Virus genome (UHGV): UHGV-0245185
DNA from: a virus
Strand: one strand, 5' to 3'
DNA: 36,271 nucleotides
In this document: positions 5,782 through 32,476 of the stretch, one piece after another
How positions within the stretch are numbered: the stretch's first letter is position 1
Layout: each line of letters opens with the position of its first letter
Notes under the pieces: generated by a model
The model's input: the letters and a program-made list of their open reading frames with translations, nothing else
The model's database searches: none
Told to the model about the DNA's origin: nothing
Position numbers and translations under genes: made by a program

Positions 5782-6322
5782 ATAAAAAATCCAAACTAGG
5801 AGAATCGTCTACAACACTTTTCTTTTCAGCCCCCGGTGTTCTATAGGTTGATTCTTCGTAATGCGTCATTTTATCGTAGATGTCTTGAATAAAAGTTTCA
5901 TCTACTAACGCAACCATATCGTCGTCACGACTGTCATAGACATTGTGAACGAAGTAACTATATTTCTTTGCAACTTCCTTACGTTCTTTTTTAATACGTT
6001 GGACGAATGCATTAAAACAAGCTTGAGTTATATATGCATGTGGGTTTTTATATTTCGTTTCATCAAAATTATGAAGCCCCTTAATAGAAGCTTCTATACC
6101 ATCTGCAATCATTTCTTGTTTCCAAGATTGGGTGTATCCTGAAAAGTTGAAACGTTTAGATAAGCCTTCTGCAATAAGCATAATGGCTAATCCGATAGTA
6201 TCATTCTGACGAACTACTTTATTTGGGTCTTTATTATTTGCTAATTCTGTTTTCCAATCAATAATAGCTTGTAAAAGCTCTTTATTGTTTACGTAATTAT
6301 ATTTAGGCTTAGTTTCTGACAT
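5765..6322 (-). CDS. 55: Late-transcription sigma factor gp55
   Basis: 185 aa from the ATG at 6322 ([18 protein letters not shown]...) with SD AAGAGGTGAAA; the track start at 6328 is a GTG two codons upstream. Matches T4 gp55 as recalled. Confidence 0.9.
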
Positions 6323-6359
6323 TTTCACCTCTTAGCTCAATTCATAGATCTATTATATC

Positions 6360-6387
6360 ATAATATTTGAAGATCTATCTTAAAGCA
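6360..6387 (-). promoter_or_regulatory. Putative MotA-dependent middle promoter upstream of gene 55
   Basis: Minus strand TGCTTTA (MotA-box-like), 15 nt, TATTAT. The -10 lies in the loop of an 8-bp inverted repeat ATAGATCT...AGATCTAT (6344-6351 / 6371-6378). Confidence 0.4.
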
Positions 6388-6400
6388 TAGAGGATATCAG

Positions 6401-18668: not shown

Positions 18669-19196
18669 TTATGCGAGTACCGTCTTTAACCGTTCTTCAA
18701 ACTTCCGAAGAGTATTTTGGCGTTCAGCTCTTTGCTTTTTGTAAGTTTCAATACGCTCTGAAATGAGAGTGTATCGTTCATTTACTGATTCTTTCATAAA
18801 ATCAGGAATTTCACGAGAAGCTTTAATCTCGTCAAATTTATCAATAACAGCTTGCTCTTCAGCAATTAAGTTATCATACATTAAAATATCTTTCTTGATG
18901 AACTCAATATCTTCTTGAGTTACACGAGATAATTTAGATGCTTTATCCTTTTTGTACTGTTTGTTAGTATCACGAGACCAGTGTAATGTACGATTTTTAT
19001 TCGTATTTTTGTAAATTTCTACAATACCGATCTCATCAATAATAACAATCCAATTCCAACGTGATTTGTAAATTTGTCCTCCATCAACAGTGATTTCACC
19101 TCCGATTGAGATGTCATTAAAGAACTTGCTTTGTGCTTCAGATTTAAATTTACCATCGTTATAATTTACTAAGTTGAAAATATCTTTAGCGTTCAT
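18669..19196 (-). CDS. Hypothetical protein (175 aa)
   Basis: ORF track; ATG at 19196 preceded by GGAGGAACAG, which forms the 3' arm of the promoter hairpin. Confidence 0.55.
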   Translation of the reverse strand: MNAKDIFNLVNYNDGKFKSEAQSKFFNDISIGGEITVDGGQIYKSRWNWIVIIDEIGIVEIYKNTNKNRTLHWSRDTNKQYKKDKASKLSRVTQEDIEFIKKDILMYDNLIAEEQAVIDKFDEIKASREIPDFMKESVNERYTLISERIETYKKQRAERQNTLRKFEERLKTVLA

Positions 19197-19200
19197 TTTC

Positions 19201-19255
19201 TGTTCCTCCGTAGTTGATAGGGTAATAATACCACAGAGGAACAGTCTTGTAAACC
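19201..19255 (-). promoter_or_regulatory. Early promoter with SD-sequestering stem-loop
   Basis: Minus strand GTTTAC-AAGA-CTGTTCCTC-TGTGG-TATTAT-...-GAGGAACAG-GAAA-ATG. Perfect 9-bp inverted repeat (plus 19201-19209 / 19237-19245) flanks the -10; the 3' arm is the SD. Confidence 0.55.
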
Positions 19256-28434: not shown

Positions 28435-28896
28435 TCATTGAGTTTTAATTACTGCTTTAGAAGCCTTTCCTGGTAAACGACGACTGTTGATAATTGCCAT
28501 CCTGCATTGAAGCGACGGGTCTTTGAACTTCGCATTAGGTTTACAAACTGTAAATCCAAGCCAAAGATTTCCATCTGTGATTTCTAAACGTCCAGGACGG
28601 TATTCAACCCCATCAATAAAATCCTCGTCAATGTCAGGACGCGGAGGCATACTCAGGAATTCATTAACTTCTAAAACATGGTCTTTTATTTTGTGGAATA
28701 ATTCAAAAACATATGTCTCATCAATCTCCCGTTGAATTGCACGATCAAGAAGATGCTGAGAATATTTTAGATGAAACGATGAGACCCCTGCTGCTTTTGA
28801 TGCCTCACGAATCTCATTGTTAATTTGACGAAACTCCGACTCAAAGTGACGACGAAGCTTATTTCGACGGATAAAAACTTCTGTGTTGATAGTCAT
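28435..28896 (-). CDS. regB: Endoribonuclease RegB
   Basis: 153 aa MTINTEVFIRRNKLRRHFESEFRQINNEIREASKAAG...; matches T4 RegB as recalled. Confidence 0.88.
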   Translation of the reverse strand: MTINTEVFIRRNKLRRHFESEFRQINNEIREASKAAGVSSFHLKYSQHLLDRAIQREIDETYVFELFHKIKDHVLEVNEFLSMPPRPDIDEDFIDGVEYRPGRLEITDGNLWLGFTVCKPNAKFKDPSLQCRMAIINSRRLPGKASKAVIKTQ

Positions 28897-28903
28897 GTTA
28901 TTC

Positions 28904-28953
28904 TCCTCTTAACTGATAGAAAAATTATACCACAGTCAAGAGGAAAAGTAAAC
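28904..28953 (-). promoter_or_regulatory. Early promoter for regB with SD-sequestering stem
   Basis: Minus strand GTTTAC-TTTTCCTCTTGACTGTGG-TATAAT-TTTTCTATCAGTT-AAGAGGAG-AATAAC-ATG. TCCTCTT in the spacer pairs with the SD AAGAGGA. Confidence 0.55.
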
Positions 28954-31145: not shown

Positions 31146-31514
31146 TTAAAATTTTTCATTGAGTCGTTGTTGACTCAATTTAATAGCTGATTTGCATGGA
31201 TTATAATCATTTTTCCATTCTGCTGGAATATCGCTGATGTCAGGAACTTCAGTATCTTTTATACTAAACCCACGTTTTAAGCATTCCATTATAATGTCTG
31301 ATTGACGTTTTCGCAAAAATTCTAACTTATCGTAAAAGAACGTGACATGACCAGAACCTAAAATAAACTCGGAAGATATTTTAAAATCTTTAACCCGTTT
31401 ACCATTTGCCACGTGTTTACGAACTATACCAAAAACACGTGGCAATTCACGGTATTCCGCAATTAAATGTTGGTCAGCAAGTTCAGATACTAAAGTCAAA
31501 TTAATACGAGTCAT
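31146..31514 (-). CDS. denV: Endonuclease V (pyrimidine-dimer DNA glycosylase) DenV, truncated at 122 aa by a frameshift
   Basis: [29 protein letters not shown]... matches T4 DenV as recalled. The missing tail [18 protein letters not shown] is encoded in the adjacent frame at 31099-31160. Confidence 0.85.
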
Positions 31515-31520
31515 TTTATC

Positions 31521-31569
31521 TCTCCAAGTAACTGTGAATATACTATCACAATTCTAGGAGAAAATAAAC
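31521..31569 (-). promoter_or_regulatory. Early promoter upstream of denV
   Basis: Minus strand GTTTAT-TTTCTCCTAGAATTGTGA-TAGTAT-ATTCACAGTTACTTGGAGAGATAAA-ATG. About 85% identical over 40 nt to the module upstream of ipII. Confidence 0.55.
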
Positions 31570-31874: not shown

Positions 31875-31911
31875 ATGTTTCCTTTAAATATTTTAATTAG
31901 TAATTGTGAAT

Positions 31912-31941
31912 ATACTATCGCAGTTTTAGGAGAAAATAAAC
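31912..31941 (-). promoter_or_regulatory. Early promoter upstream of ipII (near-duplicate of the denV promoter)
   Basis: Minus strand GTTTAT-TTTCTCCTAAAACTGCGA-TAGTAT-ATTCACAATTAC...; abuts the lysozyme stop. Confidence 0.55.
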
Positions 31942-31945
31942 AACT

Positions 31946-32476
<531 letters not shown>

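What the first reader, a model, noticed from the sequence alone, without database searches (positions are those of the whole stretch)
19201..19255. Recurrent early-promoter modules in which the spacer pairs with the downstream SD
At least three genes (nrdC.8 position 19201-19255, regB 28904-28953, denV 31521-31569) show the same layout as the lysozyme control region (32441-32474): GTTTAC, a spacer containing an anti-SD arm, TATAAT, about 15 nt, then the SD arm and ATG. The clearest is a perfect 9-bp CTGTTCCTC/GAGGAACAG pair. Read-through transcripts would fold and mask the ribosome-binding site, while transcripts initiating at the internal promoter lack the 5' arm and are translatable. This is documented for T4 lysozyme and, I believe, gene 49; I have not seen it described for regB, denV or nrdC.8.
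Basis: partly seen in the sequence, partly recalled or inferred. Interest (0 to 1): 0.5.

Follow-up and report, generated by a model that had tools for sequence, protein, structure and literature searches.

The report
Early-promoter cassettes that mask their ribosome site
In this T4-like phage, three early genes (nrdC.8, regB, denV) have a promoter inside a hairpin that buries the ribosome-binding site, so only RNA started at that promoter should be translatable; this extends a trick known from T4 lysozyme to a dispersed family of early-promoter cassettes.

Summary
On the minus strand, the nrdC.8 and regB promoter spacers form 15-bp helices with their own Shine-Dalgarno (SD) regions (13 Watson-Crick pairs plus 2 G.U). 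The next best of 41 gene starts in the window has 7 Watson-Crick pairs. The denV stem is interrupted but folds as stably (z about -5; 0 of 200 shuffles). Opening the SD costs 12-21 kcal/mol in read-through RNA and 2-5 kcal/mol in RNA started at the embedded promoter.

In relatives the arms change sequence but stay complementary (covariation 0.28 against 0.10 in shuffles, 0 of 500). In T4, strong masking occurs at 8 of 30 early-promoter cassette genes and 3 of 129 other starts (p = 7.5e-5). About ten T4 genes carry it.

The elements are PeSL-like early-promoter cassettes, previously read as terminators and recombination sites. SD masking marks a sub-class of about 25-30%. Other cassettes carry hairpins that spare the SD.

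The mechanism is the known T4 e/soc/49/I-TevI logic with an early promoter instead of a late one. It is inferred here, not shown. Older T4 literature could not be read, so priority is uncertain. Verdict: a new variant of a known kind, moderately interesting.

The parts
19249..19254 (-). nrdC.8 cassette: T4-type -35 box GTTTAC, 2 nt after the nrdC.9 stop codon (TAG 19259-19257)
19230..19244 (-). nrdC.8 5' arm CUGUUCCUCUGUGGU in the promoter spacer (anti-SD core CUGUUCCUC 19244-19236)
19225..19230 (-). nrdC.8 -10 box TATTAT preceded by TGn; inferred TSS near 19218
   Evidence: TTTACA-17-TATTAT, 10 of 12, TG present; the TSS is inferred from spacing
19200..19214 (-). nrdC.8 3' arm ACUACGGAGGAACAG containing the SD GGAGG (19209-19205); ATG at 19196
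28948..28953 (-). regB cassette: -35 box GTTTAC, 2 nt after the vs.3 stop codon (TAA 28958-28956)
28933..28947 (-). regB 5' arm UUUUCCUCUUGACUG in the promoter spacer
28924..28929 (-). regB -10 box TATAAT with TGn; inferred TSS near 28917
   Evidence: TTTACT-17-TATAAT, TG present; the review calls it a typical early promoter
28901..28915 (-). regB 3' arm CAGUUAAGAGGAGAA containing the SD; ATG at 28896
31564..31569 (-). denV cassette: degenerate -35 box GTTTAT, 2 nt after the ipII stop codon
   Evidence: the relative L022 has GTTTAC
31546..31562 (-). denV 5' arms: UUCUCCUAG (31562-31554, anti-SD) and AAUUGUGA (31553-31546, inner stem)
31540..31545 (-). denV -10 box TAGTAT (4 of 6) with TGn; inferred TSS near 31533-31535
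   Evidence: not called by the sigma-70 scan
31520..31537 (-). denV 3' arms: UCACAGUU (31537-31530) and CUUGGAGAG (31528-31520, SD); ATG at 31514
32441..32474 (-). Lysozyme (e) control region, the known comparator: two late promoters TATAAATA and the hairpin AAUACCUUC / UAGGAGGUAUU
   Evidence: literature

Best explanation
Each site is a compact, roughly 60-nt intergenic early-promoter cassette of the PeSL type. Its order is: upstream stop codon, GTTTAC, 17-18-nt spacer, TGn plus -10 box, short leader, SD, ATG. A pyrimidine-rich stretch of the spacer is complementary to the gene's own SD region.

RNA that enters from an upstream promoter contains both arms. It folds into a 14-15-bp hairpin of -20 to -23 kcal/mol whose loop holds the -10 box and the start site. 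That hairpin buries the SD, so 30S binding is blocked. It should also block RegB cleavage at GGAG.

RNA started at the cassette's own promoter begins in the loop and lacks the 5' arm. Its SD is open. The gene would therefore be translated essentially only from its own immediate-early promoter, and expression would stop when early promoters are shut off even if read-through RNA persists.

Shown here: the sequence geometry, the thermodynamics, conservation by covariation, and enrichment at promoter cassettes. Inferred: promoter use and TSS in this phage, folding in vivo, and the effect on translation.
For: 1. Geometry: the 5' arm lies between -35 and -10.
2. SD opening energy is 21.5, 18.3 and 11.5 kcal/mol in read-through RNA against 3.5, 5.4 and 4.5 in short RNA. 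These are ranks 1, 2 and 4 of 41 window starts. The known lysozyme case ranks 5.
3. Hairpins fold at -23.2, -22.4 and -20.7 kcal/mol (z about -5). That is more stable than the lysozyme hairpin at -13.4, which reduces synthesis about 100-fold according to the review.
4. Relatives keep pairing with different arms. The covariation score is 0.281 against 0.102 in shuffles (0 of 500) and 0.01-0.07 in slid registers.
5. In T4, masking of at least 9 kcal/mol occurs at 8 of 30 cassette genes and 3 of 129 other starts (Fisher p = 7.5e-5). The measure recovers e, I-TevI, I-TevII and segB.
6. The three window hairpins are 7-10 kcal/mol more stable as sense RNA than as antisense, because of 2-3 G.U pairs each.
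7. There is no T-run after the stems and no terminator between upstream promoters and the sites.
8. In vivo, RegB needs single-stranded GGAG. It cuts the regB SD efficiently and the nrdC.8 SD moderately, so bulk early RNA has an open SD.
Against: No experiment on translation of read-through RNA exists for these genes.

Only about 25-30% of cassettes mask the SD. Others carry equally conserved hairpins that leave the SD free (class B, and T4 ipII). The conserved feature may therefore be a hairpin that forms only in read-through RNA, with SD masking as a side effect where leaders are short.

The JS98-type stems are perfect palindromes, so they do not show on which strand or at which level they act.

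The window's denV stem is not above chance on its own by the simple measures.

The amount of read-through RNA is unknown.
Confidence: 0.62

Rival explanations
1. The hairpin is a general PeSL stem-loop. Its selected role would be transcript-level: attenuating or terminating upstream transcription, or protecting the 3' ends of upstream mRNAs. It could also serve as a homology patch for cassette recombination. On this view, overlap with the SD is incidental where the leader is short.
For: The PeSL papers assign terminator or attenuator and recombination roles. One RB49 stem-loop reduced lacZ expression like a strong terminator. Many cassettes with the same loop carry hairpins that do not include the SD (22 of 68 are class B; T4 ipII, mobD.2 and dmd). 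Chimeric cassettes such as JS98 nrdC.8 point to recombination in the shared loop.
Against: No T-run follows the stems, and the terminator scan does not call them. In class A the 3' arm always contains the SD core. The arm positions flanking the core covary. Whatever was selected, a 15-bp helix over the SD must impede 30S binding, so this rival concerns purpose more than consequence.
Confidence: 0.2
2. The hairpin mainly shields read-through polycistronic RNA from RegB. RegB cuts single-stranded GGAG in early SDs and triggers decay, so shielding would let downstream genes on long transcripts survive.
For: RegB requires single-stranded RNA and is easily inhibited by structure. Sixteen RegB-resistant T4 GGAG sites lie in stable structures. 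The 3' arms cover GGAG and the A-rich 3' context of the 11-nt RegB site.
Against: Not all masked SDs are good RegB sites. denV is resistant because of its 3' sequence context. The effect would add to translational masking rather than replace it. There are no data on long transcripts.
Confidence: 0.1
3. It is a DNA-level feature: an inverted repeat across the -10 box that acts as a protein-binding palindrome or cruciform and modulates early promoter activity or shut-off.
For: The arms flank the -10 box symmetrically. JS98-type stems are perfect palindromes. The review states that the mechanism of early-promoter shut-off is not completely understood.
Against: The arm sequences differ widely between cassettes while complementarity is kept. 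That argues for nucleic-acid pairing and against a protein recognition sequence. The window stems need G.U pairs that are A.C mismatches on the other strand.
Confidence: 0.05

Closest known systems
T4 promoter-in-hairpin translational gating (gene e lysozyme, soc, 49, I-TevI; also I-TevII/III, Aeh1 mobE, segB)
   Same: The SD or AUG is sequestered in a helix in long transcripts. A promoter is placed so that its transcripts start 3' of the 5' arm and are translatable. The window's own e region shows it.
   Different: The known cases use late (TATAAATA, gp55) or middle promoters and delay expression. Here the promoter is a sigma-70-type early promoter, with the anti-SD arm inside the -35/-10 spacer. 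The predicted effect is the reverse: translation restricted to the immediate-early period. The element is also a dispersed, shuffled cassette rather than a single-gene leader.
PeSL (promoter-early stem-loop) cassettes of T4-type phages (Arbiol 2010; Comeau 2014), and the IP-locus early-promoter elements that Arbiol 2010 attributes to Repoila 1994
   Same: Intergenic position. Upstream stop codon, AT-rich stretch, -35, -10, stem-loop, SD and ATG within about 60-100 bp. Many copies per genome, with evidence of recombination between copies.
   Different: The published reading is terminator or attenuator plus recombination site. The words 'translation' and 'ribosome' do not occur in Arbiol 2010. 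For PST/T4 the authors mark a stem just upstream of the promoter, not the spacer-SD stem. SD masking applies to only a sub-class.
Intrinsic (Rho-independent) terminators
   Same: A stable hairpin in an intergenic region.
   Different: No T-run follows the stem, the loop is 15-23 nt, and the terminator scan does not call them.

Membership tests
T4 promoter-in-hairpin translational gating (e/soc/49/I-TevI type) | The SD and/or start codon is base-paired in transcripts from upstream promoters | tested here: met
   Prediction only: SD opening energy is 11.5-21.5 kcal/mol in read-through RNA; z about -5
T4 promoter-in-hairpin translational gating (e/soc/49/I-TevI type) | A promoter is placed so that its transcripts start 3' of the 5' arm | tested here: met
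   The 5' arm lies between -35 and -10. Promoter use is documented for T4 regB, and promoter-attributed primer-extension stops are reported in the denV experiment. It was not mapped in this phage.
T4 promoter-in-hairpin translational gating (e/soc/49/I-TevI type) | The embedded promoter is a late (TATAAATA) promoter, giving late-only translation | tested here: not met
   The embedded promoters are early sigma-70-type (GTTTAC, TGn, TATAAT). Only the e region has TATAAATA.
T4 promoter-in-hairpin translational gating (e/soc/49/I-TevI type) | Demonstrated reduction of translation from long transcripts | not testable with these tools
   Needs reporter fusions or ribosome toeprinting
PeSL cassettes | Intergenic composite: upstream stop codon, AT-rich stretch, early promoter, stem-loop, SD, ATG | tested here: met
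   All three sites: the stop codon is 2 nt before -35, and -35 to ATG spans 58-61 nt
PeSL cassettes | Repeated and dispersed, with shuffling between copies | tested here: met
   The loop bait gave 92 instances across IMG/VR contigs (5 to 14 per complete JS98-like genome). There are about 30 cassettes in T4, with shared halves and chimeras.
PeSL cassettes | The stem-loop acts as a transcription terminator or attenuator | tested here: inconclusive
   No T-run and not called by the terminator scan. Function was not tested.
T4 early promoter | GTTTAC -35, 17-nt spacer (TTTACA register), TGn, TATAAT-like -10 | tested here: met
   nrdC.8 and regB score 10 of 12 with TG. denV in this window is degenerate (GTTTAT, TAGTAT) and falls below the scan threshold.
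Intrinsic terminator | GC-rich stem, short loop, T-run | tested here: not met

The most novel reading that the evidence does not exclude
A sub-family of mobile early-promoter cassettes in T4-type phages is self-insulating. By placing an anti-SD arm in the promoter spacer, each cassette makes its gene translatable only from its own immediate-early promoter. It also makes long read-through RNA silent and RegB-resistant at that site. Recombination in the shared loop mixes the arms, so gene shuffling can switch the insulation on or off. This would give a genome-wide, RNA-encoded layer of early/delayed-early control affecting about ten T4 genes, including regB, alc, modB and denV.
Probability: 0.35. 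Interest if true: 0.6.

Novelty: new variant of a known kind. Interest (0 to 1): 0.45.

Why it matters
T4 is the reference system for temporal gene control, yet the 2010 review of its post-transcriptional control says that only a few advances had been made on cis-acting leader structures in the preceding decade. If confirmed, about a third of T4-type early-promoter cassettes would carry a built-in translational gate. That gate would confine expression to the first minutes of infection. It would also offer a way to keep the RegB nuclease tightly limited, which the 2010 review suggests its production must be. It would give a second function to PeSL cassettes, so far seen as promoter-terminator recombination modules. 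It would link module shuffling to changes in translational control. It would also supply compact natural parts (about 60 nt) for promoter-specific translation in synthetic constructs.

Tried and rejected
1. T4 GenBank and RefSeq records carry no promoter features for this region, so promoter calls rest on consensus and literature.
2. A full-length MAFFT alignment of the cassettes shifted the arm register. It was replaced by an arm-only alignment anchored on the -35 box and the GGAG core.
3. A simple count of G.U against A.C was inconclusive, with about 4 against 2 independent events. Sense against antisense folding over all 58 loosely selected cassettes was not significant (Wilcoxon p = 0.32). 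Only the T4-type stems, including the three in the window, are asymmetric.
4. The IMG/VR pattern GTTTACAAGA-N10-RTGGTA was too loose and returned mostly chance hits. Only 9 distinct sequences kept a T4-type -10 box, and about 6 of those are real cassettes.
5. An Rfam search found no family in the window.
6. Miller 2003 (MMBR) and Repoila 1994 (EMBO J) are not held. An earlier description there, or in Liebig and Ruger 1989 or Mosig 1998, cannot be excluded.
7. Translational coupling through hairpin melting by ribosomes terminating at the upstream stop codon was considered. It is judged unlikely, from general knowledge of ribosome footprints rather than a test, because the stem cores begin 8-12 nt or more after the stop codon.
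8. An intrinsic-terminator reading was rejected.

Full report
IDENTITY OF THE WINDOW. The window is a segment of a T4-like phage (Tequatrovirus), colinear with T4 from about 34.5 to 70.8 kb. The early genes lie on the minus strand. The ORFs at 18669-19196, 28435-28896 and 31146-31514 correspond to nrdC.8, regB and denV. The ORF at 31946-32440 is the lysozyme gene e.

THE OBSERVATION. Read on the minus strand, all three sites have the same compact layout.
- The upstream gene ends 2 nt before a T4-type -35 box.
- A 17-18-nt spacer follows, then TGn and a -10 box, a short leader, the SD and the ATG.
- The distance from -35 to ATG is 58-61 nt.

It extends to 15 bp with two G.U pairs. regB has a 15-bp helix with 13 Watson-Crick pairs and 2 G.U pairs.

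Its boxes are GTTTAT and TAGTAT. Its stem is interrupted: UUCUCCUAG/CUUGGAGAG with one U.U mismatch, stacked on an inner stem AAUUGUGA/UCACAGUU.

The lysozyme region contains two late promoters (TATAAATA), not an early promoter. It shares the logic but not the sequence layout.

IS IT MORE THAN CHANCE? Yes for nrdC.8 and regB, and only with support from relatives for denV.
- Among 41 SD-supported gene starts on this strand, nrdC.8 and regB have 13 Watson-Crick pairs in a contiguous helix over the SD. No other start exceeds 7.
- A thermodynamic measure that tolerates bulges compares the cost of opening the SD and start codon with 85 nt of upstream RNA against 28 nt. It ranks nrdC.8 (18.1 kcal/mol), regB (12.9), the gene 55 homologue (9.0), denV (7.0) and lysozyme (5.7) first. 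All other starts are at or below 4.4.
- The hairpins fold at -23.2, -22.4 and -20.7 kcal/mol, with z-scores of -4.9, -5.5 and -5.3. No shuffle out of 200 does as well. The documented lysozyme hairpin gives -13.4 kcal/mol and z = -4.8.
- On the simple arm-against-leader duplex test the window's denV is not significant (27 of 500 shuffles), because its inner stem straddles the start site.

READ-THROUGH AGAINST PROMOTER-INITIATED RNA. In RNA that includes the upstream arm, the SD block is essentially never unpaired. Opening it costs 12-21 kcal/mol. In RNA beginning at the position expected for the embedded promoter, the seventh nucleotide after the -10 box, it costs 2-5 kcal/mol. Because the 5' arm lies between the -35 and -10 boxes, it cannot be part of a transcript started at that promoter. 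That follows from the geometry and is not a prediction.

The sigma-70 scan calls the nrdC.8 and regB promoters at 10 of 12 matches with TG. It does not call the degenerate denV promoter. No terminator-like site on the gene strand lies between upstream early promoters and any of the three sites. The strong minus-strand terminators are at 21223-21204, 24794-24777 and 35947-35929. Read-through RNA is therefore plausible.

COMPARATIVE EVIDENCE. T4 differs from the window at two positions of the nrdC.8 arms, and both window variants add a base pair. The denV cassette has diverged strongly, yet T4 has a perfect 10-bp pair TCTCCTGTAG/CTACAGGAGA.

Upstream of nrdC.8, regB and denV homologues in IMG/VR contigs, the arms take many forms and remain complementary:
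- TCTCCAGTAG/CTACTGGAG
- TCTCCTCTAG/CTAGAGGAGA
- TCTCCTGTAAG/CTTACAGGAGA
- TCCTCCAAG/CTTGGAGGA
- TCTCCGTTTG/CAAACGGAGA
- a 13-bp TCTCCTGTAGATG/CATCTACAGGAGA

In 19 of 26 distinct cassettes, at most 2 of 500 shuffled 5' segments bind the leader as well. Cognate pairs average -18.6 kcal/mol against -12.1 for non-cognate pairs.

An arm-only alignment was anchored on the -35 box and the GGAG core, and three cassettes with broken pairing were kept in it. On that alignment, 5 of the 6 variable pairs change on both sides. The covariation score is 0.281, against 0.102 in shuffles (0 of 500 reach it) and 0.01-0.07 in slid registers. The sequences are related by descent and by cassette duplication, so the counts overstate the number of independent events. 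Even so, at least seven distinct arm types exist.

HOW GENERAL IS IT? The conserved loop TACTATAGACCTATCAA constrains neither arm, so it was used as bait. It returned 92 instances, mostly in JS98-like genomes, with 5 to 14 copies in each complete genome. Of the 68 distinct cassettes with a -35 box and an SD plus ATG:
- 18 have a helix of at least 8 bp over the SD.
- About 22 have a different hairpin, in which the spacer pairs with the box just after the -10 (AGGTCTATA/TATAGACCT) and the SD is left free.
- Others pair the -35 box with the distal spacer.
- The pairing energies fall into two groups.

In T4, early-promoter-like cassettes precede 30 of 159 SD-supported starts. Masking of at least 9 kcal/mol occurs at 8 of these 30 and at 3 of the 129 others (Fisher p = 7.5e-5). 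The T4 members are nrdC.8, regB, denV, alt.-3, alc, modB, motB.2, 30.8, e.8 and ndd.4. The same measure recovers e, I-TevI, I-TevII and segB, which the review names as cases, and gene 26, which I recall as a reported case. These act as positive controls.

RNA OR DNA, AND WHICH STRAND? Watson-Crick stems fold equally well on either strand. The three window cassettes are 7.1, 9.9 and 7.1 kcal/mol more stable as sense RNA than as antisense, because each has 2-3 G.U pairs. The T4 ndd.4 copy and the L223 copy differ from nrdC.8 only by transitions that keep G.U or C-G pairs. The JS98-type stems are perfect palindromes and give no information on strand. Over all loosely selected cassettes the asymmetry is not significant. 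The evidence for an RNA-level structure on the sense strand is therefore good for the window's cassettes and silent for the others.

WHAT IS KNOWN. Promoter-in-hairpin gating is established for T4 e, soc, 49 and I-TevI. It is reported or implicated for I-TevII/III, Aeh1 mobE and segB. The lysozyme structure lowers synthesis about 100-fold. All of these involve late or middle promoters.

Composite early-promoter and stem-loop cassettes (PeSLs) were described in RB49/phi1 and later in PST/T4 and nt-1/KVP40. They were read as promoter-terminator modules that mediate gene shuffling. Arbiol 2010 never uses the words 'translation' or 'ribosome'. For PST/T4 the marked stem lies upstream of the promoter. 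According to Arbiol 2010, Repoila et al. 1994 had already seen PeSL-like early-promoter elements at the T-even internal-protein loci, which adjoin denV. I could not read that paper or the Miller 2003 genome review.

[quoted passage not shown] RegB needs single-stranded GGAG. The nrdC.8 SD is moderately cleaved. denV resists cleavage because of its 3' sequence context and becomes cleavable in vivo when that context is changed.

INTERPRETATION. The best-supported mechanism is translational masking of read-through RNA, with translation only from the cassette's own early promoter. This is the e/I-TevI logic with the opposite timing. Its physical consequence is hard to avoid for nrdC.8 and regB, given helices roughly 9-10 kcal/mol more stable than the lysozyme hairpin.

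Whether masking is what selection acts on is less certain. A comparable fraction of cassettes keep hairpins that form only in read-through RNA yet spare the SD. That leaves room for three other readings: a transcript-level role (attenuation or 3'-end protection), a RegB shield, or recombination homology. A protein-binding palindrome is unlikely, because the arm sequences vary freely while staying complementary.

VERDICT. It is a new variant of a known mechanism rather than a new kind.

Noticed in passing
window 31146-31514 (-), frameshift near 31150-31160: The denV ORF is frameshifted in an A-run. Frame 0 ends ...QQRLNEKF after 122 aa. Another frame continues [18 protein letters not shown], matching the C-terminus of the 138-aa relatives (L022, L023, T4). 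This is either a sequencing error or a decaying gene. Its promoter boxes are also the most degenerate of the three.
   Followed up: partly
window 6318-6400 (-), gene 55 homologue (ATG 6322): CCUCU (6393-6389) pairs with the SD AGAGG (6332-6328) around an inner palindrome, with a TATAAT (6357-6352) in the loop. Upstream-dependent SD masking is 9.0 kcal/mol, third highest in the window; fold z = -2.7. T4 gene 55 gives 8.2 kcal/mol. This may be another promoter-in-hairpin gate, on the late sigma factor gene.
   Followed up: partly
window 23949-23890 (-); T4 57932 (mobD.2) and 20553 (dmd): Class B cassettes: the spacer pairs with the box just after the -10, and the SD is left free. The window has GTTGGCAAGGTT/AATCTTGTCAAC where T4 has GTTGACAAGATT, so two A-to-G changes are kept as G.U pairs. 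T4 dmd has a compensatory C-G in place of U-A. This is a conserved hairpin specific to read-through RNA, with unknown function.
   Followed up: partly
window 31875-31935 (-), ipII cassette (ATG 31874): It shares its 5' half (GTTTATtttctcct...TAGTATattcacaattact) with the denV cassette, but it has a long leader and no SD masking (1.4 kcal/mol). T4 ipII has a 13-bp hairpin CCTAGAATTGTGA/TCACAATTCTAGG across the -10 box. The cassette halves look exchangeable.
   Followed up: partly
T4 (NC_000866) 166749-166764, ndd.4: The cassette places GGAGG 7 nt before the ATG at 166749. The annotated start at 166764 lies inside the hairpin's 3' arm. The true start is probably 5 codons downstream of the annotation.
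   Followed up: no
L010 and L107 (JS98-like nrdC.8 cassette): The 5' arm is of the ATTAG type and the 3' arm of the CTACT type, giving one mismatch. It looks like a chimera of two cassette types joined in the shared loop, as PeSL-mediated recombination would produce.
   Followed up: no
window 21223-21204 and 24794-24777 (-): Strong intrinsic terminators with UUCG tetraloops (AGGGAGCCUUCGGGCUCCCU plus a U-run, and AGUCUCCUUCGGGAGACU plus a U-run). These bound the early transcription units that feed read-through into the cassettes.
   Followed up: no
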